Part shown: positions 57 through 64,000 of the stretch, one piece after another
Numbering within the stretch: the stretch's first letter is position 1
How the letters are laid out: each line of letters starts with the position of its first letter
Origin: Blasia pusilla
Taxonomy: Eukaryota
Reading direction: 5' to 3'
Assembly (NCBI GenBank): GCA_050084515.1
Contig: CM114271.1
Span: 42,346,001 to 42,410,000, forward strand
DNA length: 64,000 bases
Position numbers and translations under genes: made by a program
Notes under the pieces: generated by a model
What the model saw: the letters and a program-made list of their open reading frames with translations, nothing else
Database searches by the model: none
What the model was told of the DNA's origin: nothing

Positions 57-106
<50 letters not shown>

Positions 107-156
107 ATTACAAAAATGGCAGTGGAAATGAGTCACGCACCAGCTGGAGGCGGTTT

Positions 157-205
<49 letters not shown>

Positions 206-339
206 ATTACAAAAATGGCAGTGGAAATGAGTCACGCACCAGCTGGAGGCGGTTTGTGTGTGTGTGTGTGTCTCTCTCTCTCTGTGATTACAAAAATGGC
301 AGTGGAAATGAGTCACGCACCAGCTGGAGGCGGTTTGTG
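57..339. repeat. Three identical 56-bp units (104-159, 203-258, 284-339) separated by (CT)n/(GT)n microsatellites
   Basis: Unit GTGATTACAAAAATGGCAGTGG...GGCGGTTTGTG is seen three times; the spacers are pure dinucleotide repeats. Confidence 0.95.
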
Positions 340-14491: not shown

Positions 14492-16049
14492 ACGCTCTTA
14501 TCACCAACCTGCACTCAAACGCACTCACTTTAGTCTCTCTTTGGGTCAAGTGGGCCTCCCACCTATTGAGTCCTTGACTCGGCACCTCATCAAGCTCAAC
14601 CTTCCCTCATTCCTAGGTTCCCAACACGGGCAAGTCTTCCGAGACTTGGGACAGACTCTCTAGTTAGTCCAGCCATCTAAAACGGCGTTTGCTTGCCTTG
14701 CGGTCCCGACTGTCCAACGGACCTCGCATAAGTCCCCAACCGAGACTCAATAATATGAGTCTCCAGTTGGAATCCAATAGGGACCTCCAAAATCCACTCT
14801 ATTGGATTTGGTTCAGGTTTCGAATCCCAACGCCAAACTTCTGATCCGTTCTGTGCCCTTGAGTCACCCCGTGACGGCCAAAGTGGGGTTCGAGAGCCAA
14901 GTAGCCTTGGAGACCTTCCCCTTTACTAGTACTTATGGGGATTACCAAGGCCCCTCTACCTTTGGGAAGGAGCACACGGGCCCCTCTGTTGGGCCCTCAA
15001 CCCAACTCCATGTATAGTCAATTTTGGCCCATATCTCGGCTTCTGCTTAAGCATTTTCCAAAATCTTTGGTACGTTGGAACCAATCTGCATAAGCTTTCC
15101 AATGTTACCATTTTTGTCCCAAAATCATATTAGGACTTAAAGTTATGGTCAAAAGTACAGTAAAAAACTCCAAACGCTAGCCGCGCCCCAAGTTCGGTTC
15201 TTACCCTTAGCCGCATCTCCTTCCGAGACTCATCTTCCTGAAGTATGGGTTCCGCGTTTGTGACCATAAACACATGAAACACTTGAAATGCTCGCTGCGC
15301 TTGCGTCTCGCACTTGTGTTTCTCTTACTCCAAAGCGCAAAACATCCTAGCGTGAGCTCGCTAAAGTTTGGATGTTCCGCTTGGCGCTCGTTTGGTCATG
15401 AGGATTGCGACACTCATCGCTATGAAGAGGTTAATGCCCTCATAAACGCAAACCTTTTTGTAATGTCAAGTCATTTTGGGAAAGCTGAGGAATTGCGTTC
15501 TGGTAGCTAACCCGCAATTCCTCTTTTGGCTTACGTCTTAGGTTATCGCATGCAATTTTTAGCATCATTTAGCATCTCCTCTTAGATGAGCCTAGACCGG
15601 CTCTCAACTGATCTAACCTATCAAATAAGCTTACTAAGGTTGCTACCTAAATTTCTCTCACTCACAATTCATAAACATCTCACATGTTTACACGGTACAC
15701 AATTTGAACTACTTTTCGGTGGCTCCTATTCAACTTAGGCGTGTCTCTAAGTTCATTCATGCATTCACGAGTAAAATCACCTCAAGCCCCATGATAGAGT
15801 GATCTGCCCCACCGACGCTAGGGCAAGCCCAAATGTTAGTTACCCAACACTTGGTCTTGCTCTAAGTACTTATCTGAATACAATCTCTCACCTCAAATAC
15901 TCATTGTCTATCCTCTCGACTTATATCCTAAGCATATGAGGAACCACTCATTGCCATGCACTACCAAAGAAAAATTGCAAATTACACAAGCATCCAATCT
16001 CCAAATTCATGCATTCCTTTATTGCAACACTAGCCTGTTCTAGTTACAA

Positions 16050-20791: not shown

Positions 20792-20804
20792 AGCTCTGAT
20801 ACCA
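20792..20804 (-). promoter_or_regulatory. PBS complementary to tRNA-iMet
   Basis: TGGTATCAGAGCT on the minus strand, 2 nt from the 5' LTR. Confidence 0.9.
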
Positions 20805-22731
20805 CATGTCATGTGCCTACTCTCCTCGAACGTCAATCTCAATGTTGCAAAAGCGTACGTTTAGTAGGACACGCTCTCATTGCCAACCTGCACCCAAATG
20901 CACTCACGTTAGTCTGGCTTTGGGTCAAGGGGCCCTCCAATCCACCAAGTCCTTGACTCGGCACCTCATCAAGCTCAACCTTCCCTCATTCCTAGGTTCC
21001 CAACACAGGAAAGTCTTCCAAGACTTGGGACAAACTCTCTAGTTAGTTCAGGCACCTAAAACGGCATTTGCGCACCTAACGGTTCCACCTATCCAACGGA
21101 CCTTGCATGAGTCCCTAACCAAGACTCAAAAATATGATTCGCAAGTTGTAATCCAATAAGGACCTCCAAAATCCACTCTATTGGATTTGGTTCGGGTTTC
21201 GAATCCCAACGCCAAACTCCCAATGTGTTCCTTGCCCTTGAGTCACCCCGTGGCTCCCAAAGTGGGGTTTGAGTGCCAAGCACCCTTGGAGACCTTCCCC
21301 CTTACTAGTACTTTTGGGGATTCCTAGGAGCCCCCTACCTTTGGGAAGGAGCACCCAGGCCCTCTGTTTGGCCTTCAACCCAAGTCCTTATATAGTCAGT
21401 TTTGGCCCATATCTCGGCTTTTGCTTAAGCGTTTGCCAAAAATCTTTAGTGCGTTGGAACCAAATTTGCATAAGCTTTCCAAATCTATCCTACTTCTCCC
21501 AAACGCATCTCATGACTACAAGTTATGGTCAAGAGTACAGTCAAAAACTCCAAACGCTAGTCGTGCCCCAAGTCCGGTTCTTATCCTTGGCCGCATCTCC
21601 TTGCGAGACTCATATTCCTAAAGTCTGGGTTCCGGTCTCCTTAGTCGCAACCATAAACGCATGAAACGCTTGTTGCGCTTGCGTCTTGCACTTGTGTTTC
21701 TCTAACTCTAAAGTGCAAACCATCCTAACGTGAGCTCGCTAGAGTTCGGATGTTCCGCTTGGCGCTTGGTTAGTTATGAGGGTTGCGACAAAATATGTGA
21801 AAAGTCAATATGGGCAAGACACCAGGATACTAGTTATGAAATGGGAAGGTTGACAAGACAACCATGAGACATCAACCGCGGAGTGAAGACATGAGATAGC
21901 CATGAGACACATAAAACGCGGGTCTAAGCTCCAATATATATTTAAGAATCCAAGAGTTGCATAATGTGTAGGAAGTCTCCTCCAAGCCATCTTGACCAGT
22001 CTACAAATTGCAAGCCATGTTTGGGTACGTAGAGGGACAAAACCAAGGAACTAAAGGAGAAATTGGGGAAGGTGGGTTCCCCTTAGGAGAACCCTACAAT
22101 TCTCCCTCCCTATCCGCTCAAGTCCTTGAACTAGGAACTAATTGTAAAAATTGTTTAGTCGGATTTCAGGTTTAAGCTAAGGGACACACCTTAAGAAATA
22201 AACCAATGTGGTCAAGTATAGGCAAGGGACTTAGGGAGATTAGTGAAGACTTGAAGAAAAATATTATATGCACTTTGGGATATTTGATTCGATTGGCATT
22301 TGGCAGCTTCTCGACTACCTACGAAACACGCAAGCAGTTGAGCATTAGAGACTCAACTTAAGTCTTTCGCTTATAAAGCTCAAAGTTGGGTTTTCCTCGA
22401 GACGAGACTAAGAGGATGAGAACCACATAGGTTCTCAACGTAACGTCTTCCTAATACGATAATCACATAAACAATAAATTTTTCAGACTACTTTAAGTGC
22501 TTACTAGCCACACATCCTATAGATTCTTTGCCTAGATGAAGTCAAGAAGAAAGAGAAGTCACCAATATTTTTGGGCTCTCCTAGACCACACTATATTGGC
22601 CTTAAAAGGCCTTGACCTTTACCTTCAAGACTATTGTACTATATCTAGATTAAATTTCCATAATTATGAAATATTAAAAATAGATAAAATCAGATATTGA
22701 ATTCTATCAAGATAGGGTAGCTAGAGTAGTC

Positions 22732-30140: not shown

Positions 30141-30278
30141 TGTCGTGCGCATACATATCGCTACACAACATACATCGCTCGTCACATCTACACCACACAA
30201 CACCGATCTTCCCCACACACGGGTTGATCCACACATGTACAAAAATCAACTCATACATATACATGGAGATCACACAAC
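30141..30278 (-). repeat. Terminal repeat B2 (138 bp)
   Basis: Matches 30759-30896; I see one mismatch. Confidence 0.95.
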
Positions 30279-30756
30279 AAAAATAAAGAGTAGTAAAAAC
30301 GGCACACCCGGCCTAAAACTCCACTCCTCACTCTACATCGGCATATCGAGCCTCGTCCACCCTGTGCTATCAAGGAATCCGGACGCTAGCACCCTAGTCC
30401 TAGCTCACACACATACAAGGGAGGTGCTCCAACGGCCCAACATGAGAAAGATGGCTTAGGAAAGCCATCTTCCTCTCTTATATAGGGTTGGGAAGAGCCA
30501 AAAGGCTCTTCCCTAAAAATAACCCTTCCTTGGTAACCTTCAAGACAAAGTTACCACGGGCGGGTGACCTGGTCAACAAATCACCCGGCTGTAAAAGACC
30601 TCAACATGAAAGTTGTCAGAAACGACGTTCTTGACACAATGGACCTATCCTCGACCTCATCCGACACCGTGGGACAAAGTTACACTCAAGATAGTCCGCT
30701 GGCTCCTACGCCCTATCCACGATAGATCTCGGCCTATCGGCTACTCAGATGTGACA
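30279..30756 (-). repeat. Repeat A2 (478 bp)
   Basis: Matches 39086-39564 at roughly 95% by eye; contains TATATAA on the minus strand near 30478-30484. Confidence 0.95.
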
Positions 30757-30758
30757 AC

Positions 30759-30896
30759 TGTCGTGCGCATACATATCGCTACATAACATACATCGCTCGT
30801 CACATCTACACCACACAACACCGATCTTCCCCACACACGGGTTGATCCACACATGTACAAAAATCAACTCATACATATACATGGAGATCACACAAC
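30759..30896 (-). repeat. Repeat B1 (138 bp)
   Basis: Copy of 30141-30278, separated from A2 by 2 nt. Confidence 0.95.
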
Positions 30897-30907
30897 CGCC
30901 CCCCTAG
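30897..30907 (-). promoter_or_regulatory. Polypurine-tract-like plus-strand primer site
   Basis: CTAGGGGGGCG immediately precedes B1 on the minus strand, ~65 nt after the pol stop. Confidence 0.7.
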
Positions 30908-30972
30908 CTGGCAGTTGGATTACCCCAACTCTAGATAGAAAATATCACATCTCTCTGACATGACCTACTACC

Positions 30973-32260
30973 CTATATACATCTCGGACACATCCATCGT
31001 CCCGTGGGAACCACATCAAGAGGGGGGGTCAGACATGACATATGCCATCCTCGAGAACAACCATCACATACCAACATGGTGGCTGCACCCCTCGCAGATC
31101 CACACAACATACACCTCAAGCCTGCAGGTACCACTGCCAAGCTCGGATCCACCATCCCATCTATGTTCGGAAGATGACATGGCGCACAATTGCGCACATG
31201 ATCCTTCCAAACCATACCATCCCGTCCCTCCAACATGAGGACTCCGGTCGGTAATACCTCGCGCACACGTAGGATCATGCGCCTCGCTGATGACATCTAG
31301 CGTCATGGGTGCCGCCGCTGTAAATACACGTAATCTCCAGGATGAAACCTCCTAATCCCTGGACGATAACCTCCTCCATGAATGGTCGCGTACCTCAATG
31401 TATCTCTATGCTGGGCAATAGCTAAGTTCTCAAAGGCCATATGCATAACTCTACGAAAAACTTCTGCCCTCTGAGAACATGCTTGCACCCACACATCTGG
31501 ATCATCAAGATCTAACACCTCTGCCATGTCACGTCGAATCGCTGCAGGTAAATCTGGCTCTCTCCCAAAGAGCAAAAAGTACAGTGAAAATGACGCCAAG
31601 GATTCTTGCCGACTAAAGCCATAACCCATAGCCAACCATGGCAACTATAGGTCCCACTCCCTCAACTGTCCCCACTGCAAGCCATACTTGCGCAATCCTC
31701 TCTTCACCGTCTGTACCACTCTCTCCGCCAACCCATCCGCCTCAGGATGATCTCTAGACGTGGTGCGGTGATCTATCAGCGCCTGATCACACAAGGCCTG
31801 AAACTCTCCCCTGAACTCAGTACCCTGGTCAATCAACACCTCCTCCGGTGCACCAAAGTGACTAAGCACACGATCTAGAAACGCATAAGCTGTTCCCTCG
31901 CTCGCCTTTTCTGGTAGTGCCACCAACTCTATCCACTTGGAGAAATGCTCCACCATGACCAACACGTACCTATGATGACGCCCTGTCAATGGAAAAGGTC
32001 CCGCAAAGTCTAAACTCCACGGATAACCTAAACCCATAATCGGCAAAGGATGTAACTGCGGAGTGGGAGCATTGAAAGATGCTCGCACTCTGTCATATAC
32101 CATACATCTGGCCACAAACTGCTGTACCCCAGTATGCATGCCGCGCCATCAATACTCAACCCGGAGTAAGCTGTAAGTACGCTTTACTCCAAAATGTCCC
32201 AACTCCTCATGGGCATGTCGCACTATAAGTGCTCGCTGGGAAGGATGAGGTACCACTCGT
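30973..32260 (-). pseudogene. DDE integrase with C-terminal PHD finger (PHD 30976-31113)
   Basis: HAHEELGHFG zinc motif; WSLDFAGP / IDQGTEF / GLAERVVQTVK catalytic core; C4HC3 CMLC...CDGC..GWHMSC..PL..VP.GRWMCPRC. One TAG stop and frameshifts. Confidence 0.92.
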
Positions 32261-32599
32261 ATCCTACCATATCCCCATACCCAAAAAATGTGAGTCCCCT
32301 CCCACCTGAACCTCTTGGCTCTCTGTAGGATCCGATCCCGCTCCCTAGCACTCACTATACTCGCAATGACGCCAGTGCGCAAGAACTCCACAACCTCCAC
32401 GTCGTCATGGATATCACGACCACCTGTCGCCTCCTCACTAACCTCCAGATCCAAAGACTCATCATCCAATCCCACCACTGGAGTCATCACCTGTGGCTGA
32501 CCTGCCATAGTCAACCAACAAAGATAGGCAGATGCATGCCAACCGGGCACCATCTCCTCATCACTCTCTCCGTGCCATCGAGCTCCTGTGTCGTCTCTC

Positions 32600-33960
32600 T
32601 GACTCGGACATGGGTTACGACTCAACCCATCTGCATCCTGGTTCAGCCGACCTGGCCTAGAACCACCTCAAACTCATACTCCTGTAGAAATACACCTGGC
32701 AAGCTTGCTCGTAAGCTTGTCGGACTCCATCAAACACCTCAACGGCTGATGATCAGTGATAAGTGTGAAAGGGTTGCCGAATAAATAGCACCTAAAATGT
32801 GCCACAGCCCACACTACAGCCAAGCACTCTCCCTCGTAGGAGCTCTACTTTGCCTCTGCAATGTTGTTCGATCGGCTCGCGTAAGCCACAACGAACTCCC
32901 TCTCCTCGTCATCCCTCTGAGTAAGCACTGCTCCTAGACCCAACATGCTCCAATCCGTATGTAACTGGAATGGGCGACCCCTAACCGATCTCTGTAAAAT
33001 GGGTGAGGATGTCAACCTATCCTTGAGCTCCTGAAATGCTCGCTCCTGATCATCTCCCCACAACCAAACCTGATCAAATCTCGTCAACAAGGTCAAAGAC
33101 TTTGCGATCGCACTAAAACCCTTGACATACCATCGATAGAAGTTCGCCAGTCCAAGAAATGCTCGGACTCGACTCACATCTGTAGGGCGTAGAATCTGCG
33201 CAATAGCCTCTACCTTCGTCTGCTGGACGCCTAACCCACTCGGGTATATGGTGTGTCCCAAGTACTCAATCAACTCCTGAAAGAATCTGCACTTGCCTGG
33301 ATGTAACTTCAGTCCATGTAACTGCAATCGCTGAAACACCTCCTCCAAGTGTCGCTCATGCTCCTCGACCGTGGAACTGAAGATAAGAATATCATCTATG
33401 TAACATTGTACAAAATCCAAGTCAGCCAGAATCCTATCCATCACTCTGAAACTCTGCAGGCGCGTTCTTCAACCCAAATGGTAAGAACCGCCACTGATAC
33501 AAGCAATCTCTCCCGAACCGATCTATCCCCCAGAATGCTGTCTTCTCCCTATCCTCCAACCTGATAGGAAGCTGATGATAGCCAACACGGAGATCTAAAG
33601 TACTAAAGATCTTTGCATGCCCTACCGCATCAAAGATCTCCTCAGGAGTAGGCATGGCGTACCGATCTGACCTCGTTTGTTGGTTGATAAGACGGTAATC
33701 TCCACACATCCGCCTATCCGTCCAATTGCCATACATATCCTTCTTCGTCGGCATGACTGTGGCAGATGCATACTACCCATGTGATAACTCCACAAGTACT
33801 GCCTCCAACAAGTCCTGACTCATGCTCTGAATCAAGGCTCGCTCCATATCAGAATACCTGTAGGATCGACGAAAGATCGGTATCCCGGGACCCTTCAGCG
33901 TACCCAAGTCTCTCATACTGAAGGCAAAACAACTGACATGCCCTTTCAAAACCTATGAAC
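32600..33960 (-). pseudogene. Gypsy reverse transcriptase + RNase H
   Basis: RMCGDYRLIN, LDLRVGYHQ, LPFGLKNAP, YIDDILIFS, LHTDWSMLGLGAVL, VAYASR. Confidence 0.95.
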
Positions 33961-34334
33961 TCGCCGTCGCTCTCCTCCTATCAACTTGAGACCTATCACA
34001 GGCTCCCAAGTCTCCATCGTGACCTCACTCGGAGAGGACGCAACCTCCGGCTTTGGTTGCTATGTAGCAACCCTAGCCACCTCTGCAACAACCACTCCAC
34101 TCTGACCTCCTACACCATGCTCCACATCCAAAAAATGAACATGTGCTACTCTAGCCGCCTTCGCACTCTCTACTCGAACGACGTCCCAAGAAGTCCATGG
34201 GTGCCTATCTCTCCTCGTCTCGCCCCCAGCCAATGCCTGTACAGACCCTGTAGGCAATGGTCCAACTTGTGGACGTGACGGCATGGATGACACTCGCATC
34301 CATCTCTCGCCACCATACCTAGGTGACTATCCAT

Positions 34335-35265
34335 GTGAGACGCTTGAGGTCCATCGCCGCCTAACACTGCCTCCGGATGCCTCGGTCATCCCCGGCACCG
34401 CCGTAGTACCGGTAGTGAACCCCATGGCGCGCTTGCGCTCATCTGCTGTAGGCTCCTCCAATGCTCCGGTCACCTCATCCCAAATCATGCCTGGCCCTCC
34501 CTGACAAAAGGCATGGGATGTTCGGAAGCTCACCAACGTAGGTAAGGCTGCCCTAAACTCCCCCACCCTATTGGCCATGGCCAACGGTGGTCTATCATCC
34601 CGTGTCACCACCGAGATCGACGCCCGAGCCCAAAATAGCATCCACCGTGAGATGTGGTGCTCTCTCGACTCCACCGTATGCTCGACTCAAGACTCCGATG
34701 GTATCAAGTTCGCCCACCATAGTCGTGGACGATGGGCACGTGACCCAACTCTCGTTGCATCTAACAACACAAAGAGAGTCCCAACCAGACTCACCGATGT
34801 ACACTCGTCATCACACGTGCACGAGTGTCTCCCAACAACGGCACGTTCTCCAAAATGTACGCTGGAGAACATATCTTACTCTCCTGCAAGTGTCGTACTA
34901 CTCGCAGCATCTCCCAAAACATCCCTGACCTCGGATCCTGCAATCCAAATCCTCGGCTAGTTGATGAATGACCCTGACATGGCCATCCAGCAATCACCAA
35001 ATGAATGGTGCCAACTCTATCCAGATCCTGCGCCCCCACCAAAGAGATGTCGGTGGGTAGCGTAAGCTGGTATCCCCATACTGCATATACCGACAACAAG
35101 TCAGGATACCTCTGGACCAATCTCGCCACGTGACGTAATGATACCCGCCGTGCGGTCTCATCTCTCTCCACATAAAGGTACTGATGCACCCGTATGCCCG
35201 CCTGCAATAGTGCAGCCAATCCGGTGCTAATCCCTCCGAAGAGATCTAACACCCTAACACCCTCC
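34335..35265 (-). pseudogene. DNMT3-like C5 cytosine methyltransferase domain within pol (frameshifted)
   Basis: Motif I VLDLFGGISTG; II YVERDE; IV AGWPCQGHS; VI YILENV; VIII AHRPRLWWANL; IX ERKRAMGF; motif X region (intact RRQVLGQAM in copy 3). Confidence 0.9.
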
Positions 35266-35689
35266 TCTAGGCACTGCCACACAACAAGTGTGGTATCTAG
35301 TGGGGTCATCGTCTCCACTCCAAGAGCCCAATCGCCACGTGACTCTCGCTGCTATGGGATAAAAACATGACTCCACGCCTGCCTCACAAGGTTGTCGGCA
35401 CTCCTCTGTAGCTCGCGAGTCGTACCCCACAATGGTGAAGAGGCCTCGCCAACATGGGAAGAGACACCCGCCATGGCCTGTCTCTCCGTGGGACTATCCG
35501 CTACTGGGACATCCTCCGCATGTGCATTCCCCTCCAACAACTCTCTTGGCCACCTAACACTACCTGTGAAAGCTGCCAACGTGGTCACAGACTCGCCTCG
35601 TGATCAACCACCTCGTCTCGCAAACTGCACGGGTAACTGACTCATCCGGCCGTCACCTAACCGCCATCCTGGCCGATAAGCAACGGTCT

Positions 35690-36000
35690 CCTCCCACAAG
35701 TCAAGGATGAATCCTAGGGGATATAACACTGTACTCCCCACCAACACATCGTACGACTCAGCTAGTGTCGTAATTGCACGTGTGCGCATCATAGCACTAT
35801 CCATCGCATGCTCTGGCTGGACTCTGACAAAAATCTCCTGTCGAGTCATATACTGAGTGGGTGATACCCCCCAATCGAGGTCTGTAACTGGAAGGGACAA
35901 GGCTCATTGTCGGCCTTCCGTAACCCCAACGCTAAACACGCCACCTTCCCTAACATCAAGGGTTGCGCCCCGAATCAAGTAGGACGCTGGCCATGGTGGT
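35690..36000 (-). pseudogene. Aspartic protease
   Basis: VLLDSGAQPL (~35960-35985, with a frameshift) and YDVLVG. Confidence 0.75.
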
Positions 36001-36769
36001 ATATGTCCCCGTCGGACTAACCAAGCGAAATACTCCAGCTCGGTTATCCAATAACACTACTCAAGTGTCACCACGCCGCTTATGGCTCTGCCGAGCCGGG
36101 CATATCTACCAACTTCACCGCCGCCGATGCCATGACTCGTGGGGAACGTCCCAAGCACCACCGAGGGCAAGTCCACCACCTCCTCAACTACCTCGAACAA
36201 GAAGCGGTCATCTCTCCACGCTCACACAACGTGGGACCAATCGAACACCTCGGTGGGTCTAACTCCCAACGCCGCCAACTCTATGGCGGAAAATAGTGAG
36301 TCGACTCACTCGGTGGCCACCTCCAACACTATAGTCGACATCGACTCCACTCAAGCCAAAGCATAGGAGTTGTCACTCCAACTCCTCGTGATGTCGACGA
36401 GGTGCTCGAATCAGAGACACCGCTGGTCGCCGAGGCACCATCGATGGTGTGTGTAGTGCCTCCGACAATGTGAACGACTGTGGAACCCTGGCCTGCCGCC
36501 CATTGGTTCCCTCTGGTGGGTCAATCTCAACTCCACCTCTCGATGGCTCGGTGCCTCTCGCAGCACCCCGAGTCATCACTGCAGCTGCCTCAACCTGGGC
36601 TGCACTACACAAAAATCCCATACTGGCGAGATCCTCACCGGGGTCAGGGTAAGAGGTAGAAACTGGATTCACACTAGCTGCTCGCAGTTCCGTGCCTTCC
36701 CTAAGCTGCATCATCGTCATGGCAACAATTCTCTGCTCCAACTGATTGATGCGTGAGAGAAGTTCCGGC

Positions 36770-38072
36770 TCTCATGCTCCTGCTCCATCTCCTCTGGTTG
36801 GTGGTGGTCCTCTACCACCACGTCCAGGAAGAACTCCCCGACCTCCTCTAGGACGACTGCACCCAGGCCCTCGGCCTACCTCTGGACGTGCCCCTCGGCG
36901 AAGGTCAAAACATCTATCCCTAGTGTGACCATATCTATGGCAATGGTCACATTGGTGCTGTGGTGGGGCCATCCTCTATGGCTCCTGAGCAATCGGAGGC
37001 GCTGGTGGTCCTCTCCCATGCTGTGGGCAGTCTCTCTGCCTATGGGCCCCTCCACACGTCCAACATTGGTCCCTGATGGGCAACATATGTAGGTGCGGGT
37101 CGTTGCCTCATAAGCTCACGGTACCCGCCCTGCTCTCTAGGCACACTGGCCCGCTCCCGTGGTACTGGTGCTTGCTTTGTGGGCTTTGTGGGGTCACCGC
37201 CAAATGGACCCGTCGACTCTCAAGAAAATCCAGCGGTCACTACCTGCTCCTCACTCATGTTGAGCTCAATACGCTCAGACAACTCAAAGACCACCTTCAA
37301 TGTGTGAATCAGCACCACATCTCGGACTCTCCTCCATAGTTCTCGGTCTAGATTCCCGTACCAATATTGGACTGACTGCGCCTCAGTCACTCCAAACGTA
37401 GCAATGATCAGCCTCCTCATGCATGTGAATGCCTCTCTCAGACTCTCAACCGATTGTCGCTGAAAATCCTATAGACTCTTCAACTTGTCGTTGCGTACGT
37501 CCTGGTAGCTCTTCCCTAACTGTCGGAAGAACTCCACTGTGGGGCTGAAGCTGGGTGGCCCTCTACCACCAGAGGTCTCTGCCACATCGCCTATCTCACT
37601 ACCCTCCTCTCCGGGCTGATGGTGTGGGTATTTCTCCTCTCACAATCCCATCATATGCCTCGCGACCACTAGTGGACACATACCCTGGAGCCCAATACAT
37701 CCTCCACGCATCGATCTCTACTGAATATAGTGATCGGAACTCCATGTTGTCATCCATCGGAGGACCCTCCAAGTGCTGGAACAACCCCTTCCATGCCATG
37801 AAAGGGTTGAACCGTGTCGGGGTCCGTATCTCATGGAAGTCGCACCATGTGTCGAACTCCTTGATAAAATCATCTAAGTCGATGGTGCCCACTGCACCCG
37901 AGAAACGACGCATGCCCCGATGGCCCATGTCGTCCATCTCCTGCCAAGTACTCATCGTGACGGTGAATCTCGTCACTGCACCGTGTGTCGGTGATGACGA
38001 TCCAGTCACGGATGGATGTCGAGGGAGCTCCTCACTGGTAACCCCTCCGTATCTCACTCCACTCCGTGTCAC
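36770..38072 (-). pseudogene. Gag with two CCHC zinc knuckles, frameshifted
   Basis: RRFSGAVGTIDLDDFIKEF capsid-like start; knuckles CWTCGGAHRQRDC (~37030-37070) and CDHCHRYGHTRDRC. Confidence 0.8.
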
Positions 38073-38624
38073 ACCACTACTACTGCTCGCACTACCCCAT
38101 TCTTCCGAACCCTGGAAGAACGCCGTGATGACAAACCCTGTCTCACCCGCTCAAGCACTCAGACTCACCGAGAGTCTCCCACACGCCTCACTAGCTCACC
38201 TATGCTAACATCAATCCCGTGATGACATACTCGGCCTCACGCACGCTCAACACTCGGGCTCACCATGAGCCTCCCAACTGACTCACCTAACCTAGCGACA
38301 CTCTCTCGGGTCATACACGCGACCCCTACTCGGCAACCTCCATATATCCACCAACATGCTACACATGAAAAGAATCTACACTCGTCACCATCACTGCACC
38401 CATTTAGCACCAGCTACTACCCGATACCCAGCACTCTCAATCACACACGACAAGTGCGGGAAAAGGGACGCGAATGGGTAACCTGATCACGCCCTCCAAT
38501 CTGCTGCACCGTCAACATGCACTCCTCCACATGATATGACAATCTCCGCAACACAACACTCCCCTCGACCAACACGTCGATCCTCCCGTCAACAGATGCG
38601 GACAACCCGTCGGCATCATGCACA

Positions 38625-38757
38625 CCCGTCCGCGCCCATCCACGCCCGTACGCGCCCGTCGCCGCCCGTCGCCGCCCGTCCGTTGCCCGTCGCCGCCCGT
38701 CCGTTGCCCGTCGCCGCCCGTCTGCTCCCGTCTGCTCCCGTCCGTCGCCGCCGCGCC
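38625..38757. repeat. CpG-rich tandem repeats (GCCCGTC core, 10-11/21-bp periodicity) in the element leader
   Basis: Direct reading. Confidence 0.85.
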
Positions 38758-39071
38758 CTAACCCTAGACCGGCCGTTTTACTTGACACCCCCCTGGCGGC
38801 AGCAAGCTCTAACTCTTCTCCCTGTGTACTCCCGACATTCCATGAGCTATAAGACGACGTTACTCTTGCCGACACAACCTGCGCTACACCCTGCTGCTGT
38901 CCCCCATCAATCCGCACCAGCAAAATCTGAGAAAAATGGACAGCGCTTCCGCCCACGGCCTTCCGAACATAAAAATGACACACAAAACGTCACACACACG
39001 TCTCCAGGGGCTGCCGACCAAGGAAACTCGCTTGCCTACCTGCCAACAACGAATTCCCACCATCCCCTTGA

Positions 39072-39085
39072 CATCTTTCTCATGT
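39072..39085 (-). promoter_or_regulatory. Putative self-priming PBS
   Basis: ACATGAGAAAGATG abuts A1 and is the exact reverse complement of the minus-strand sequence at 39260-39247, ~31 nt downstream of the TATA-like box. No TGG-type tRNA PBS is present. Confidence 0.75.
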
Positions 39086-39564
39086 AAAAATAAAGAGTAG
39101 TAAAAACGGCACACCCGGCCTAAAACTCCACTCCTCACTCTACATCGGCATATCAAGCCTCGTCCACCCTGTGCTATCAAGGAATTCGGACGCTAGCATC
39201 CTAGTCCTAGCTCACACACATACAAGGGAGGTGCTCCAACGGTCCAACATGAGAAAGATGGCTTAGGAAAGCCATCTTCCTCTCTTATGTAGGGTAGGGA
39301 AGAGCAAAAGGCTCTTCCCCTAAAAATAGCCTTTCCCTTGGTAACCTGCGCACACAGGTTACCAGGGGCGGGTGACCTGGTCAACAAGTCACCCGGCTGT
39401 AAAAGACCTCAACGTGAAAGTTGTCAGAAACGACGTTCCTGACACAATGGACCTATCCTCAACCTCATCCGACACCGTGGGACAAAGTTACACTCAAGAT
39501 AGTCCGGTGGCTCCTACGCCCTATCCATGATAGATCTCGGCCTATCGGCTACTCAGATGTGACA
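39086..39564 (-). repeat. 5' terminal repeat A1 (479 bp) containing the promoter
   Basis: Copy of 30279-30756; starts TGTCAC; TACATAA at 39291-39285. Confidence 0.95.
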
Positions 39565-41461
39565 TCTCACATTTTGATGTATTGTAGTTCCATGATATGA
39601 ACGGGCTATCTACAAGGGAATAAACACAAAAAATCCATTATGGAAAATTTTATATTTTGAAATAATGCCAACCCTTTAGTCCACAATGGACAGGAGCTAG
39701 AGATAGAGGGGGTTACATGTTAGTACGTCGCGGATGTAAGATCGTGGGATGTAAACATTTACATCACATATCTCTTTCCCGCTTGCAAAGATTTGGCATA
39801 AGTAATGACTACATGATGAAGGGTAATAAACTTGGATATGAAACTATTACAAATGGCATAGGGAGGATAAGATTCAATTTTCACTAGAGTATGGTCCACT
39901 CGATTGGAATCACCCAAATGGATAGATCCACACTAGCCACAACATTGGATCAAACTAAAAGTACTTGGGCACACAAATATCCACTTATCTAGTTAGGAGA
40001 GAGCAGGCATATAACTAGTGACTAGAATATGGCTTCCTACATAGTTGTAACTTACATGAAGTTCTAAGGCGTGAACAACGACGACGTTGCTACCTCGCGC
40101 GGTCTAATATAGCTAGCAATTGAGATATTCTAACAAAAAAATAAAATTTTGTTACAATATGGCGCTGCTCATAGACCATAGAAACAATAAAATACTCAAA
40201 GTTCGCTTTGCTCTTACCCTCAATCAACGTCCCTCTAACATAGTAACAACAAATGAATAGTATCCATATAGAAGACACACACCAATAAGAGTGAGTAAAA
40301 TAAAACCAATGCTCTCAATATGCGGAAGCCTAAATGAGAATATGTGCTTCGGATGCATCCTAAGTACATTGTACTAAGAGGTGTAGGTGAGAAATATGGT
40401 ACAATGCATTATGTCCAAGTGGTTGGTTATTGTTACAAGTAATACGAGGAGATATGAATGCAATAAAATTTTCGCTCCAAAACAATCATAACATTACCAA
40501 CATAATAAATGAATCCTGCATGAGCGCTTACGATTAGGTAAATATGAAGTGGTTGTTAACAGAAAAATATAATGCCATGATAAAGATGCGAAAAATTAAA
40601 ATTAACAATGGATGAGATGATGTGCATAATACTGAGACAAGATAAGTGGATAATAATATGATTGCTCTTGTGGGCGGCAATGGTAAATAGTGTAGAGCTC
40701 TTATGAAAGAAAATAGAACAAAATTTAGAGAAAGACAACAACTTGAATAGATGCGCAAAAGGAGTATTCAGCCATGTGTTTTTAAGTCATGGAGACGCTC
40801 GTCAATAGAATATATACCCCCTGAACATACATGGCCAAAGTTATTGCCCCGAACCTTGAATTGGTGAAGTTTTTTTGAAAATATGATAGAGGAACTAGCA
40901 TCCGTCACATGAGATTAAAAAAATACCAATCTAGAGACTAGTTTTTTCACTTGCGTGCATACACAGAGTATTCTAATATTGAGAAGCATGAACGACGTTG
41001 AAATAGGTAAGAAACCCGAACTAGAGATTGGTGGACAACCTCTTAAAAGAAGCACCCATAGATACGCCACAGGTCACAACAAGCGCGAAAGACGCTTATA
41101 CAAGTAAGCAACTCGGACTACAGATTGGTGGACAACCTCTTAAAGTATTGCTCATCCAGAAGAAAAGAATGGGCCCGCCATCTACTTGAGCAGATACGTA
41201 ATACACTACGGAAGTGAATGGAATTGAAAAACATTGCAATGGTACATCAATGACCCAAGAAACTAACAAGAATCATCGCCATCCACTTGGGCACATAAAG
41301 AGACATGCATCTAATCTCGTTGTCCTCCTGCTCATCATAAGAAACTCAAGCAATCGTAGCTTCGTCCAATCTCAGAATATCATGGCAGGCACTCGAGGCA
41401 AAGAATGCACTAAACCGACCAACCCACCCAATCGAGGGCTAAAGTGTAATGCCAACCGGAC

Positions 41462-48975: not shown

Positions 48976-49236
48976 CAACTGTGGAAAACAAATATCTCAT
49001 AGCTCTGACACCAGATATCTCACAGCTTTGAAAACAAGACTCATTGGAACCAGATAGGAACAAATTCTGAACTTTATCGACAATAGGAAAAAATTTTGAA
49101 CTTTATTGAGATATAGTACTTGAGTACAACACATCAAATTGCTCTCAGATGTGCATAGCATTTGTGTACACCTAAACTGAAGTCAACTTTACTGAACTTG
49201 ATAACTTGACTACTTTGTCAAATATGATTCTTCAAT

Positions 49237-58259: not shown

Positions 58260-59300
58260 AAAATTTTATGTTCAAAGGGTCACTGGACTTAGACCACATC
58301 TTCCACAATCTGCTCCACTAGTTTTAGGAGTTCTGCACACGTCTTTGATAACTCGGACATTTGGAAGACGTCCTTTTGTGTGCTTGATTTTAGCCCACCA
58401 AAGAAGATAATCTTCTTAGTGTACTCGCCCATTTTTTCAATTTTGTACTAAACTCATGCCCATACGCGCTTAGGGATCCTACTTGCCTTAGATGCACGAA
58501 CTTTACCCCATCTCGAAATGCTTGGTACTCCATAGTGAATTAGTCACAAATCAACATTTTGAACTCCTCCCAACTTAAAGATGACACGTTGGCTAAAGTT
58601 TCCTCTTGGTGAGCCGTTCACCACTAGGGCGCATGATCCTTCAGGAACATGATTGCCAGAGTAACTTTATCCTCCTCTTTAGCCCTTTGCGCCTTGAAGT
58701 AGAGCTCTAACTTTGTAAAGAACTCCTTCACCTTGCGAAATCGTCCCAACTTGAGAATTGCGCAGGAAAATTTGTCTTATAAAGCTTCTTACTAGAACTA
58801 GAAGCACTATCCAACTCTAACTCAAAAATCTGCTTATTGTGTTGGGTCATTTACTCCGACATGATCTTCATCACGTCCATCATGGGATCATAAAACACCG
58901 AGTCGTTTGAGGTTGGAGCTGATGGCCCCACGAAAGGATTCATATTTGGGATATCCTCCTGCCTAGAATTGGTCAGCACTTGGAGAGTTACAGTCTTCTT
59001 TTGTGGCTATTGGTCAAGCATTGGTTCCTCTCTCCACTTCTGTCGCTTATGCTAACGCCTCGATAGTGAACCACAGATAGTCACAATCCTTAAGCTCTAG
59101 ACCATTTAGATCCCTTCCTTGTCTTTTGCATCCCTCTCCAAGCATCTTGGTCACATTGCAACCTTTTGTTCTCCTCAAGCGTCTAATAGCTCTTATAACC
59201 TTAGGTGCTCTTTCACCACAAATTTGCTTTGATACCACTTGTCGTATGCCTACTCTCCTAAACGTCAATCTCATGCGGTGCGGAAGCTTGCGTTCACAAC
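58260..59300 (-). mobile_element. Fragment of the same chromovirus family (gag, PBS, LTR edge)
   Basis: ELYFKAQRAKEEDKV..FLKDHA; TGGTATCAAAGC PBS at 59237-59226; LTR edge TGTCGTATGCCTACTCTCC at 59240 matches 20807. Confidence 0.8.
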
Positions 59301-62280: not shown

Positions 62281-64000
62281 TGTGAGGTCTAGGAGGCCAT
62301 GTTGAGTAGGGTAACATGAGTATTCACGCTACCTCCTATTTTGAGCTCATTTGGAACTATTTGAGGAACTTGTTGTTTATGGTGAGTTTTCTATTAATAG
62401 AAACAAAGAAAAATAGGTAAAAACCCTAGTTTTTCCCGAGTAGTCAAATAGTCGGGAGCCGCAGCGGTAGCGCATTCTTGTATGTCGAGTTATCTCCCAG
62501 TTCAGGTTCCATCGAAGCTCTTCTGTGAGCGCACGGACGGACTAGGCCACTTTGTATCTCTAAGTTTTGTAAAGATTTCAGTGATTTCGTCACTTTCTGT
62601 TTTCTCACATGGTATGAGAGCAGTAGGTTTTCCAGTATTTTGTATCTGGCGATCTAGTGTGTTTGCACAAAATCTTGAGAGATGGCTACCTCTTCGTCAG
62701 TTCGTGCTCGCCCTCCTCCGCTGGATGAAGGGAAGTTAGATGGGTCTAACTATACGTTGTGGAAGTTCAAAATGAGAACTGTTCTCGAATCATTTGAGAT
62801 CTGGGAAACGGCCACAGGGGTCGATTCAAATCCACAAGCTAGTGTGAGTTCTGCATGTTCATCTTCATCTGGGGACATCGATCCTGTTGTATTATTGGCA
62901 TGGAGACGCAGAAATGCTGATGCTCTATATGCGATTGTCACGAATGTAACTGATTCTATCATGACTCTCATTCAACATACAACCACTACTGCTGAGGCGT
63001 GGAACATTTTGAAGAATCAGTATGAAACAAGGAATGAGACTCGGATTCAGAATCTGGAGAATCAGCTTACGTCCGAGAAATTTTCAGAAGGAGAAAGCGC
63101 GGAGCAATTTTTGACAAGGATCAAGAATCTTCAAGATCAGATGGCGTCCGTGGGAATTTCAAAGTCTAGCGAAGATTTGGCACGTCGGTGCATAAGGATT
63201 TTGCCTCCAAGGTATGACAGTTTGGTCACTGCACTGAATACTCAAGTAAGACCCACGCCGCTTACTTTTGAACAATTTAGTGCAATGTTGGTAGAAGAGG
63301 AAATGCGCTTCAAAGCAAGAGAGGGAAGTGACGCAGCATTTACTGCCAACGTACAGAGAGGTAGAAATCAGGATTACAGTTCAAATGTCAAAAAGAAATT
63401 TCCAAGAAAAACCTTCAAATGCTTTTATTGTGGTAAGCTAGGTCATGTTATCAAAGATTGTAGGAAGAGGAGTCAGGATGAGAAGAACGGTTGTTTAAGA
63501 CCTAAGAAGGAGTCTGGAAATTCTGTAGAACTGGGAGAACATGAAGTAGATGCTTGGGTAGCAATAGAAGAGTTTTGCACACAGGCAGAACATTCCACTA
63601 AGACAAAGAGTGAAGATGCATGGGTGCTCGATAGTGGAGCATCTAGGCATATGACCAATCATAAGGATTGGTATAGCTCCTTCTGACCTCTCAGAGCCCA
63701 TTGTTATTCTTGTTGGGAATAATGCAAAGTGCCCTGTAGAAGGGAAAGGCACAATTTCTTTAGTCTCACAAAAGGAGATGAAAAGAAGTTAAGCGATGTC
63801 TTCAGACGCACTAGAGTTGAAGCGAAATTTGATTTGATGGCGTATTATGTGATCGTGACCTAGAAGTTCGTTTCAAGAAAATCGAGCGATCATTGAGGAT
63901 GCCAATGGGAAAGTAGTGGGTGAAGGTATACGACGTGGAAATATCTACGAGTTGTATGCTTTCACGACAAGTGTAGGTACATATCTTAGTAGCAGTAAGT
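62281..64000 (+). mobile_element. 5' part of a Ty1/Copia element (LTR, PBS, gag-PR), continuing off the window
   Basis: LTR ends CTCACA at 62609 (start TGTGAG at 62281 is tentative); PBS TGGTATGAGAGC at 62610-62621. Confidence 0.85.
62682..63686 (+). CDS. Copia gag-protease; polyprotein truncated by TGA, disrupted downstream
   Basis: KLDGSNYTLWKFKM, LPPRYDSLV, CFYCGKLGHVIKDC, WVLDSGASRHMT. Confidence 0.9.
   Translation: MATSSSVRARPPPLDEGKLDGSNYTLWKFKMRTVLESFEIWETATGVDSNPQASVSSACSSSSGDIDPVVLLAWRRRNADALYAIVTNVTDSIMTLIQHTTTTAEAWNILKNQYETRNETRIQNLENQLTSEKFSEGESAEQFLTRIKNLQDQMASVGISKSSEDLARRCIRILPPRYDSLVTALNTQVRPTPLTFEQFSAMLVEEEMRFKAREGSDAAFTANVQRGRNQDYSSNVKKKFPRKTFKCFYCGKLGHVIKDCRKRSQDEKNGCLRPKKESGNSVELGEHEVDAWVAIEEFCTQAEHSTKTKSEDAWVLDSGASRHMTNHKDWYSSF

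What the first reader, a model, noticed from the sequence alone, without database searches (positions are those of the whole stretch)
39072..39291. tRNA-independent self-priming signal (Tf1-like)
Seen: the 14 nt directly after A1 (ACATGAGAAAGATG) are perfectly complementary to CATCTTTCTCATGT at 39260-39247, which starts ~31 nt after the TATA-like box. The same TATA-to-CATCTTTCTCAT spacing recurs in copy 2. The three other PBSs in the window are tRNA-iMet type. Established: S. pombe Tf1 primes with the first 11 nt of its own mRNA annealed to the PBS. Inference: the same mechanism operates here, fixing the U5 end at 39086.
Basis: partly seen in the sequence, partly recalled or inferred. Interest (0 to 1): 0.72.

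Follow-up and report, generated by a model that had tools for sequence, protein, structure and literature searches.

The report
Self-priming signal in bryophyte retrotransposon
A degenerate liverwort-type Gypsy retrotransposon carries, right after its left repeat, 14 bases that pair perfectly with the predicted start of its own transcript, so it most likely primes its own reverse transcription as yeast Tf1 does instead of using a tRNA.

Summary
On the minus strand, the 14 nt after repeat A1 (39085-39072) pair perfectly with 39260-39247. That site begins 31 nt after the first T of a TATA-type box, and repeat A2 holds the same site (30453-30440).

The element is a broken Ty3/Gypsy-type retrotransposon encoding a cytosine methyltransferase and a PHD finger. 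Its repeats are laid out A-internal-B-A-B. The closest proteins come from liverworts and Sphagnum.

Relatives in metagenome contigs support self-priming:
- One subfamily has a different 17-nt pair at the same place, 176 against 175 nt from the A end. One copy shows a two-position compensatory change.
- A third subfamily has a weaker pair that is not significant alone.
- A tRNA-iMet-type element in the same window shows only 6 nt of self-complementarity.

RNA-seq shows sense transcripts but did not resolve the start site. Host tRNAs could not be checked.

Verdict: Tf1-like self-priming is likely (about 0.7). It is a new member of a known kind, in a lineage where no primer site turned up in my searches.

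Side result: the primer site and the polypurine tract define a B-A unit, yet the integrated ends (TGTC...GACA, 4-bp target duplications) lie at the internal B|A junction. This permutation is unexplained.

The parts
39086..39564 (-). Repeat A1, the 5' LTR-like repeat. It starts TGTCAC at 39564 and ends ...CTTTATTTTT at 39086. Predicted U3 is 39564-39261 and predicted R-U5 is 39260-39086.
   Evidence: Direct repeats D2 and D3, 93-94% identical to 30279-30759. Sequence. RNA-seq loose ends fall at 39086 and 39564.
39072..39085 (-). Putative self-primer binding site ACATGAGAAAGATG, directly 3' of A1.
   Evidence: It does not begin with TGG. 0 of 2000 shuffles matched the length.
39247..39260 (-). 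Predicted transcript start (start of R), CATCTTTCTCATGT, complementary to the primer site.
   Evidence: It pairs with the primer site in the minimum-energy and centroid folds of 39260-39062.
39284..39291 (-). TATA-type box: TACATAAG here, TATATAAG in A2 at 30477-30484. Its first T lies 31 nt upstream of C39260.
   Evidence: Sequence. Its promoter function is inferred.
39251..39282 (-). Hairpin across the predicted U3/R border (14-bp stem). The 3' arm holds the first 10 nt of the primer-complementary site, and the 5' arm resembles the primer site.
   Evidence: I2. Fold -22.4 kcal/mol, z -5.37, 0 of 200 shuffles as good. Analogous hairpins occur in L006 and L076.
30897..30909 (-). Polypurine-type tract AGCTAGGGGGGCG directly upstream of B1.
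   Evidence: Similar tracts precede B1 in L006, L058, L060, L076, L043 and L045.
30759..30896 (-). Repeat B1. It ends ...CGACA and is followed by the 2-nt spacer GT (30758-30757).
   Evidence: Direct repeat D7, 99% identical to B2..
30279..30756 (-). Repeat A2, the 3' copy of A. It holds the same 14-mer at 30453-30440.
30141..30278 (-). Repeat B2, the right end of the element, ending ...CGACA.
   Evidence: RNA-seq reads run from the A end into B sequence.
34791..35351 (-). C-5 cytosine DNA methyltransferase domain fragment inside pol.
   Evidence: PF00145, E 5.2e-9. Relatives in Marchantia, Calypogeia and Sphagnum.
32845..33772 (-). Reverse transcriptase and RNase H, in two overlapping open frames (frame broken).
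   Evidence: PF00078, PF17919 and PF17917. 77-79% identical to Calypogeia fissa proteins.
31645..32667 (-). Integrase: H2C2 zinc domain and DDE core, with broken frames.
   Evidence: PF17921 and PF00665.
30973..31296 (-). PHD finger at the C-terminal end of pol.
   Evidence: PF00628, E 8.9e-12.

Best explanation
The stretch is the minus-strand primer binding site of a Ty3/Gypsy-type retrotransposon that primes reverse transcription with its own RNA, as Tf1 does. Transcription is inferred to start about 31 nt after the TATA-type box in repeat A, at or next to C39260. The first 13-14 nt of the RNA fold back over the roughly 160-nt U5 region and pair with the 14 nt directly after A1. RNase H of the element would cut the RNA at the 3' side of that duplex, and the freed 3' end would prime minus-strand DNA. 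That would explain why repeat A ends exactly at 39086. Plus-strand DNA, started at the polypurine tract before B1, would copy the primer and so rewrite the primer site in each cycle, which keeps the two sites complementary. What is shown: the complementarity, its position, its recurrence with other sequences in relatives, and sense transcription of the repeat. What is inferred: the start site, the RNase H cut and the priming itself.
For: (1) There is a perfect 14-nt pairing that starts at offset 0 from the repeat end. 0 of 2000 shuffles were as long.
(2) The site lies 31 nt after the first T of TATATAAG/TACATAAG in both A copies.
(3) In the L006 subfamily (RT 69-72% identical to the window's) the pair is different, AACATAGTTCTTTGAGT with ACTCAAAGAACTATGTT. 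It is 17 nt long, starts at the A end, and lies 176 nt from the A end against 175 in the window. 0 of 2000 shuffles matched it.
(4) Across 14 5' copies of that subfamily, 91.4% of 233 cells pair, against 39-63% when the partner is slid by 1-3 columns. 3 pairs (4 cells) changed on both sides. 23 of 500 shuffles reached the observed count of cells changed on both sides, and 12 of 500 reached the covariation score. L022 has TGTAG/CTACA where the others have CATAG/CTATG.
(5) In the L076 subfamily (RT 53-58% identical) ACTTTTGGTGATT pairs with AATCACCA-T-AAAGT directly after A, and the site again begins about 30 nt after a TATA box.
(6) In the swap matrix the WIN and L006 primer sites pair best with their own repeat.
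(7) RNAs taken from the predicted start fold with the 5' end on the primer site in both minimum-energy and centroid structures in all three: z -2.63, -2.66 and -1.44.
(8) As a negative control, the tRNA-iMet-type element in the same window has only a 6-nt complement of its primer site in its 996-nt LTR.
(9) The primer site does not begin with TGG and differs between subfamilies, which a host-RNA primer would not predict.
(10) Stranded RNA-seq of the same species label covers A and the A1-to-leader junction in the sense direction.
(11) No Rfam family matches the region; the best E-values are 1.3 and 1.4, far below the gathering scores.
Against: The start site is not shown. In one search the depth has no clear step at 39260. 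This is partly expected, because U3 is also transcribed from the 3' copy. The only pile of molecule ends is 5 of depth 14 at 39286 in one of three runs, 26 nt upstream and inside the TATA-type box.

In the L006 subfamily the pairing runs on to 22 nt with one G-U. It would then begin only 22 nt after the TATA-like motif, and 6 of 14 copies have TAT--AG instead of TATAAAG-type. The promoter argument is therefore weak in that subfamily.

The third subfamily is not significant on its own. For L076, 111 of 2000 shuffles were as stable and 251 of 2000 as long; for L055, 43 of 2000 were as stable and 1960 of 2000 as long. The exact search found no convincing pair in L058 and L060. By my own hand alignment of the sequences they reach 11 of 13 pairs, 2 of them G-U.

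In the swap matrix the L076 primer site paired better with L055's repeat than with its own.

Three of the 14 5' copies (L029, L063, L072) lack the transcript-start site through deletions.

Host tRNAs could not be compared, because no tRNA gene was found in the window or in 80 loci.

The window copy is dead: its reading frames are broken and its flanks GAGA/GGAA do not form a target duplication.
Confidence: 0.7

Rival explanations
1. Self-priming occurs, but not from the very 5' end. The RNA would start upstream, near 39286, and carry the whole hairpin 39282-39251. The 3' arm would switch from the hairpin to the primer site, and the primer would be released by cuts on one or both sides of the paired stretch.
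For: 5 molecules end at 39286 in run X4. The hairpin is strong (-22.4 kcal/mol, z -5.37) and recurs in the other subfamilies. In the L006 subfamily the complementarity reaches into the 5' arm.
Against: The 5 molecules come from one run of three and lie inside the TATA-type box. In the window the complementarity stops sharply at 14 nt. That fits a primer whose 5' end is C39260, since a longer primer would be copied into extra bases after the primer site. L055 and L078 lack the 5' arm yet keep the pairing.
Confidence: 0.12
2. The pairing is a long-range RNA stem used for packaging, dimerisation, translation control or strand transfer. It closes the U5 loop but is not the primer, and the true primer is something else.
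For: Folding predicts the stem but cannot show priming. Hairpins at both sites in the L006 subfamily could serve another role.
Against: The pairing starts exactly where the repeat ends in three subfamilies. In LTR elements that boundary is set by the 3' end of the primer (established retroviral reverse transcription). No alternative primer site was seen next to the repeat end. The nearest TGG-led stretch lies 24 nt further in, which would put those 24 nt inside the repeat, and they are not in it.
Confidence: 0.1
3. A host RNA (a tRNA 3' end, an internal tRNA fragment or a half-tRNA) primes at 39085-39072, and the match inside the repeat is incidental.
For: Half-tRNA and imperfect tRNA primer sites exist in plant elements (PMC6317226, passages seen). 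Host tRNAs could not be checked here.
Against: The site does not begin with TGG. The primer site differs in each subfamily, and each matches its own repeat. Three incidental matches at the same place are not credible.
Confidence: 0.04

Closest known systems
Tf1 of Schizosaccharomyces pombe and the Tf1/sushi group (Maggy, Skippy, Cft-1, sushi-ichi), which are self-primed LTR retrotransposons
   Same: The primer site lies directly after U5 and is complementary to the start of the element's own transcript. There is no tRNA-type site. The predicted fold brings the 5' end onto the primer site, with a further U5 stem beside it. The use of self-primers in this group is stated in PMC6317226 (passages seen). 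The 11-nt primer and the RNase H cut of Tf1 are recalled.
   Different: The pairing is 14-17 nt here rather than 11 nt (recalled). pol carries a DNA methyltransferase and ends in a PHD finger, not a chromodomain. The repeats are split (A...B-A-B) rather than two identical LTRs. Nothing here was tested experimentally.
Plant Tcn1 clade (moss and club-moss chromoviruses) and the TAR lineage of Ty1/copia, for which self-priming is predicted (Neumann et al. 2019, PMC6317226)
   Same: Self-priming is predicted from sequence in non-seed plants. The hosts are bryophytes.
   Different: That survey's main text does not mention liverworts, Marchantia or Klebsormidium (0 occurrences). Its supplements were not read. 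95% of Tcn1 elements have a chromodomain with an aromatic cage. This family has a PHD finger, and the precomputed Pfam lists of its relatives show no chromodomain or SH3_Tf2-1.
KnitGypsy-Dnmt3 of Klebsormidium nitens (de Mendoza et al. 2018, PMC5890265)
   Same: It is a Gypsy-type pol with an inserted Dnmt-type methyltransferase. Its repeat layout is described as 'the same as that of a DIRS retrotransposon' with Gypsy domain composition (section 9 and the Fig. 4 legend read).
   Different: Different hosts (bryophytes). No Klebsormidium protein was among the 45 methyltransferase hits, so common descent is not shown. The main text of that paper does not contain 'primer binding' (0 occurrences).
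DIRS, Ngaro and PAT-like tyrosine-recombinase retroelements with split direct repeats
   Same: The layout A1-internal-B1-A2-B2, with an internal B1|A2 junction that joins the two element ends.
   Different: This family has a DDE integrase (PF00665), TG...CA ends and 4-bp target duplications. It has a primer site and a polypurine tract at repeat borders, and no tyrosine recombinase was found.

Membership tests
Self-primed LTR retrotransposons (Tf1-type mechanism) | The sequence directly 3' of U5 is complementary to a site in the element's own R, and does not match a tRNA 3' end | tested here: met
   14 of 14 nt at offset 0. No leading TGG. 0 of 2000 shuffles as long.
Self-primed LTR retrotransposons (Tf1-type mechanism) | The complementary site is the very 5' end of the genomic RNA | tested here: inconclusive
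   The TATA-type box 31 nt upstream fits. RNA-seq gave no clear start, only 5 molecule ends at 39286 in one run.
Self-primed LTR retrotransposons (Tf1-type mechanism) | The primer site and the transcript start change together between lineages | tested here: met
   The window and the L006 subfamily have different pairs at the same position. L022 has a compensatory change. The third subfamily is weak.
Self-primed LTR retrotransposons (Tf1-type mechanism) | RNase H cuts the RNA after the paired stretch and the fragment primes minus-strand DNA | not testable with these tools
   Needs cDNA and primer mapping.
Self-primed LTR retrotransposons (Tf1-type mechanism) | No host tRNA or fragment fits the primer site | not testable with these tools
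   No genome is held. No tRNA gene was found in the window or in 80 loci.
Tf1/sushi-Tcn1 clade of chromoviruses | Chromodomain at the integrase C-terminus | tested here: not met
   A PHD finger (PF00628) sits there instead. Relatives P0008, P0011, P0013 and P0018 list PF00628 and no PF00385 or PF24626.
Tf1/sushi-Tcn1 clade of chromoviruses | RT/integrase groups with Tf1, sushi and Tcn1 in a phylogeny | not tested
   No labelled reference sequences could be obtained through the tools. The atlas look-up was uninformative.
DNMT-encoding Gypsy elements (KnitGypsy-Dnmt3 type) | C-5 methyltransferase domain inside a Gypsy-order pol (RT-RNase H-integrase) | tested here: met
   PF00145, PF00078, PF17919 and PF00665 lie on one strand in that order. 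Marchantia relatives carry PF00145 together with RT.
DNMT-encoding Gypsy elements (KnitGypsy-Dnmt3 type) | Repeat layout A-coding-B-A-B | tested here: met
   (window). (L006, L058, L060, L076).
DNMT-encoding Gypsy elements (KnitGypsy-Dnmt3 type) | Common descent with the Klebsormidium elements | tested here: inconclusive
   No Klebsormidium protein among 45 hits. The search depends on shared exact words.
DIRS/Ngaro/PAT split-repeat retroelements | Tyrosine recombinase instead of a DDE integrase | tested here: not met
   rve integrase core, E 3.1e-14. 4-bp target duplications in 5 of 7 elements examined (and the window).

The most novel reading that the evidence does not exclude
In this bryophyte lineage reverse transcription (self-primer after A, polypurine tract before B) defines a B-A long terminal repeat. 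The integrase, however, joins the genome at the internal palindromic B|A site (GACA-NN-TGTC). Genomic copies are therefore circular permutations of the cDNA: A-internal-B if both sites of a linear cDNA are cut, and the replication-competent A-internal-B-A-B if one site of an end-joined (two-LTR-circle-like) form is cut. That would be a DDE-integrase retroelement using an internal, circle-junction-like attachment site. Such a replication topology would lie between LTR retrotransposons, DIRS-like elements and IS-type circle-junction transposition.
Probability: 0.3. Interest if true: 0.8.

Novelty: new member of a known kind. Interest (0 to 1): 0.5.

Why it matters
Self-priming is known from Tf1/sushi elements and is predicted for two plant lineages. 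Finding it in a methyltransferase- and PHD-bearing Gypsy lineage of bryophytes widens its range. It suggests either independent origin or an old link to the Tf1/sushi group.

It is also useful in practice. The primer site fixes the U5 end and, with the polypurine tract, gives the borders set by reverse transcription. This exposes that the integrated copies are permuted relative to those borders. That makes the so far unexplained 'DIRS-like repeats in a Gypsy element' (PMC5890265) a concrete, testable problem of how the cDNA ends are made and joined.

Tried and rejected
- Whole genome: none is held, so there are no host tRNAs and no other copies from the same genome.
- tRNA comparison: ARAGORN found no tRNA gene in the window or in the 80 loci plus the window, so the comparison could not be made.
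- RNA holders: the index listed no RNA holder. Three raw-read RNA runs with the same species label were laid instead. They show transcription but no usable start site.
- Exact 11-mer inverted-pair scan: 72 pairs in 149,724 nt upstream against 22 in 171,606 nt of coding region. Most are low-complexity, so this is not a clean control.
- Relaxed scan allowing G-U pairs and one mismatch after T-rich runs: hundreds of hits on both strands in AT-rich DNA, so it was useless and dropped.
- A fourth subfamily: L043 and L045 show the polypurine tract, B and the B|A junction, but their 5' repeat lies at or beyond the contig start and no pair was found. L004, the closest relative with 10 kb upstream, has no recognisable A.
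- Viral contigs: one distant hit, L081 at 36% identity, not used.
- Atlas look-up for clade naming: generic RT/RNase H clusters only.
- Rfam: nothing near the gathering scores.
- Earlier notes of this scan: none.
- Literature: 'KnitGypsy' occurs in one paper only. No paper on split direct repeats together with a DDE integrase appeared among the 12 listed of 14. No paper on Marchantia retrotransposon methyltransferases appeared among the 12 listed of 19. These were title and abstract listings only.
- Chance was considered as an explanation and rejected.

Full report
OBSERVATION

The + strand reads CATCTTTCTCATGT at 39072-39085 and ACATGAGAAAGATG at 39247-39260. The repeat finder reports these as 14-nt arms, 100% complementary, 161 nt apart. 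The element lies on the minus strand. There the direct repeat A1 (39564-39086) is followed at once by ACATGAGAAAGATG, and CATCTTTCTCATGT lies 175 nt before the A end. The second copy A2 (30756-30279, 93-94% identical) has the same 14-mer at 30453-30440. The first T of TATATAAG (A2) or TACATAAG (A1) lies 31 nt upstream of the site in both copies. Shuffling the 18 nt after A1 2000 times never gave as long a complement in A1, and once gave as stable a duplex.

WHAT THE ELEMENT IS

Minus-strand open frames give, in order, a C-5 DNA methyltransferase fragment (PF00145), reverse transcriptase, RNase H, integrase zinc domain, DDE integrase core and a PHD finger. The frames are broken into many pieces, so this copy is dead.

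The repeats are not two plain LTRs. A 139-nt repeat B occurs before A2 (B1, 30896-30759) and again after it (B2, 30278-30141), 99% identical. This gives A1-internal-B1-A2-B2. A polypurine-type tract (AGCTAGGGGGGCG) lies directly before B1. The element starts TGTCAC and ends CGACA, and B1 and A2 are joined as CGACA-GT-TGTCAC.

The closest proteins are from liverworts: Calypogeia fissa at 77-79% and Marchantia polymorpha at about 70%, the latter with PF00145 in the same protein. Methyltransferase relatives also occur in Sphagnum. This layout matches what de Mendoza et al. 2018 (PMC5890265; section 9 and the Fig. [quoted passage not shown] The main text of that paper does not contain 'primer binding'.

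RELATIVES AND COVARIATION

One scan of metagenome contigs with an alignment of the RT/RNase H piece gave 473 relatives, of which the best 80 were kept (L001-L080, 51-76% identical). Self-comparison of the 43 loci of 6 kb or more found the A...B-A-B layout in L006, L058, L060 and L076, and B pairs in L052, L057, L061 and L074.

In L006 (and the near-identical L009) the bases after A1 are ACTCAAAGAACTATGTT. They are perfectly complementary over 17 nt to AACATAGTTCTTTGAGT, which lies 176 nt from the A end (175 in the window), and the same site is present in A2. The sequence differs from the window's pair but the position is the same.

Fourteen 5' copies of this subfamily were aligned. Three of them (L029, L063, L072) have lost the transcript-start site by deletion. 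On the 22-pair helix:
- 91.4% of 233 cells pair, against 39-63% with the partner slid by 1-3 columns.
- 3 pairs (4 cells) changed on both sides.
- 23 of 500 shuffles reached the observed count of cells changed on both sides, and 12 of 500 reached the covariation score.

The clearest case is L022, with TGTAG/CTACA where the others have CATAG/CTATG. Within the subfamily the covariation is therefore modest. The copies are old and many carry one-sided decay.

In a third subfamily (L076, L055/L078; RT 53-58% identical) ACTTTTGGTGATT pairs with AATCACCA-T-AAAGT directly after A, and the site again starts about 30 nt after a TATA box (GATATAAT). Alone this is not significant. For L076, 111 of 2000 shuffles were as stable and 251 of 2000 as long; for L055, 43 of 2000 were as stable. 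L058 and L060 retain only a degenerate version: 11 of 13 pairs with 2 G-U by my hand alignment, and the exact search found nothing convincing there.

In the swap matrix the WIN and L006 primer sites pair best with their own repeat, but L076's paired better with L055's repeat than with its own. As a negative control, the tRNA-iMet-type element at 20793-20804 has at most a 6-nt complement of its primer site in its own 996-nt LTR.

FOLDING

RNAs taken from the predicted start to just past the primer site fold with the 5' end on the primer site, in both minimum-energy and centroid structures, for the window (z -2.63), L006 (z -2.66) and L076 (z -1.44). In the window a further 14-bp U5 stem abuts that duplex.

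RNA EVIDENCE

No RNA holder was indexed. Three raw-read RNA-seq runs with the same species label were laid on 38600-39800 at 90% likeness. The results were:
- Reads whose first mate lies on the + strand dominate, which fits minus-strand RNA in the usual stranded libraries. They cover all of A at depth about 10-25.
- The leader beyond the primer site is covered at about 1-7.
- Reads leave the window sequence exactly at 39086 into B sequence (7-9 per run, the A2|B2 junction).
- Reads leave at 39564 into the B end (11-19 per run, the B1|A2 junction).
- No variant was listed inside either 14-mer. 73 further variant rows were not shown.
- There is no clear depth step at 39260. The only pile of ends is 5 molecules at 39286 in one run.

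The family is therefore transcribed in the sense direction, and the repeat borders are confirmed. The predicted start site is neither confirmed nor refuted.

MECHANISM

The best reading is Tf1-type self-priming. The first 13-14 nt of the RNA pair with the site after U5, RNase H frees the 3' end, and minus-strand DNA starts there. That is why the repeat ends at 39086. Copying of the primer by the plus strand renews the primer site, which accounts for the perfect match and for the lineage-specific pairs. Shown: the complementarity, its position, its recurrence and transcription. Inferred: the start site, the cut and the priming.

An unexplained feature is that in all three subfamilies the transcript-start site is the 3' arm of a hairpin whose 5' arm, in predicted U3, resembles the primer site. 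The folds are: window -22.4 kcal/mol, z -5.37; L006 -9.2, z -2.34; L076 -10.8, z -4.57. In the L006 subfamily the pairing with the primer-site region extends into that 5' arm, to 22 nt.

A LARGER PUZZLE EXPOSED BY THE PRIMER SITE

With the primer site after A and the polypurine tract before B, standard reverse transcription predicts a cDNA of the form [B-A]-internal-[B-A]. The genomic copies instead begin at the A start and end at the B end.

These ends are real integration ends, TGTC...ACA flanked by 4-bp duplications:
- L006: AAGG
- L008: TGTT
- L022: TACA
- L036: ATTA
- L072: TACA
- L069: GGTA/AGTA, one mismatch
- The window copy does not match: GAGA/GGAA.

The internal B|A junction reads GACA-NN-TGTC, with spacer GT in the window, GC in L006, GT in L043 and GC in L045.

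The L006 subfamily has two integrated forms. A-internal-B-A-B occurs in L006 and L071, with L024 and L025 cut by the contig end. A-internal-B without A2-B2 occurs in L008, L014, L018, L021, L022, L034, L036, L048, L054, L069 and L072; some of these may be the same insertion in different samples.

The short form could arise by B1/B2 recombination, or by integrase cutting both B|A sites of a linear cDNA. The long form is what cutting one B|A site of an end-joined cDNA would give. I cannot decide between these possibilities with the data available.

COMPARISON WITH WHAT IS KNOWN

Self-priming is established for the Tf1/sushi group. It is predicted for 12% of plant LTR elements, namely the Tcn1 clade of moss and club-moss and the TAR lineage (PMC6317226, passages seen). 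The main text of that survey does not mention liverworts or Klebsormidium.

This family works like Tf1 but is not shown to belong to that clade. It has a PHD finger where chromoviruses have a chromodomain, and no labelled phylogeny could be made. It shares the methyltransferase and the split repeats with KnitGypsy-Dnmt3, but no Klebsormidium protein was among the 45 hits. It shares the repeat layout with DIRS/Ngaro elements but has a DDE integrase and target duplications.

VERDICT

It is a new member of a known kind. Interest is moderate (0.5) and is raised by the permuted-repeat problem that the primer site makes visible.

Noticed in passing
window 30141-39564 (minus strand); L006, L058, L060, L076: The element has split direct repeats (A-internal-B-A-B), although it encodes a DDE integrase. 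The primer site follows A and a polypurine tract precedes B, so the borders set by reverse transcription (a B-A unit) differ from the integrated ends (A start, B end).
   Followed up: partly
L006, L008, L022, L036, L069, L072 (ends listed): 4-bp target duplications flank TGTC...ACA ends in 5 of 6 metagenome copies, with one mismatch in the sixth. The window copy's flanks GAGA/GGAA do not match, which may mean recombination between copies or decay.
   Followed up: yes
L008, L014, L018, L021, L022, L034, L036, L048, L054, L069, L072 against L006, L071, L024, L025: Two integrated forms occur in one subfamily. Most copies end after a single B (A-internal-B), and fewer carry B-A-B. This is either B1/B2 recombination or a second integration product.
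   Followed up: partly
window 39251-39282; L006 1835-1857; L076 1242-1264: A hairpin straddles the predicted U3/R border in all three subfamilies. Its sequences differ between subfamilies, and its 5' arm resembles the primer site. Its function is unknown.
   Followed up: partly
window 34791-35351 and 30973-31296: pol carries a C-5 DNA methyltransferase domain and ends in a PHD finger. Relatives with the methyltransferase are numerous in Marchantia polymorpha and also occur in Calypogeia and Sphagnum. My literature searches turned up such elements only for Klebsormidium.
   Followed up: partly
L006 about 1990-2010 against window 39247-39260: The window's transcript-start motif (CATCTTTCTCATG) resembles a conserved motif near the U5 end of the L006 subfamily (GATCTTTCTCGTG). 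There is a 9-nt exact complement between the window's primer site and L006's repeat. Unexplained.
   Followed up: no
window 20793-20804, 49002-49013, 59226-59237 (minus), 62610-62621 (plus): Four tRNA-iMet-type primer-site motifs lie next to ...CA repeat ends, so at least three or four other LTR elements are in the window. One pair of long repeats lies at 14492-15412 / 20871-21790.
   Followed up: partly
window 61-339: A 99-nt tandem repeat, each unit beginning with a (TC)n run (D4).
   Followed up: no
window 38600-38760 (minus-strand open frame 38441-38989): A short tandem G+C-rich repeat in the leader region gives a repetitive GRRRATD-type open frame with no Pfam match.
   Followed up: no
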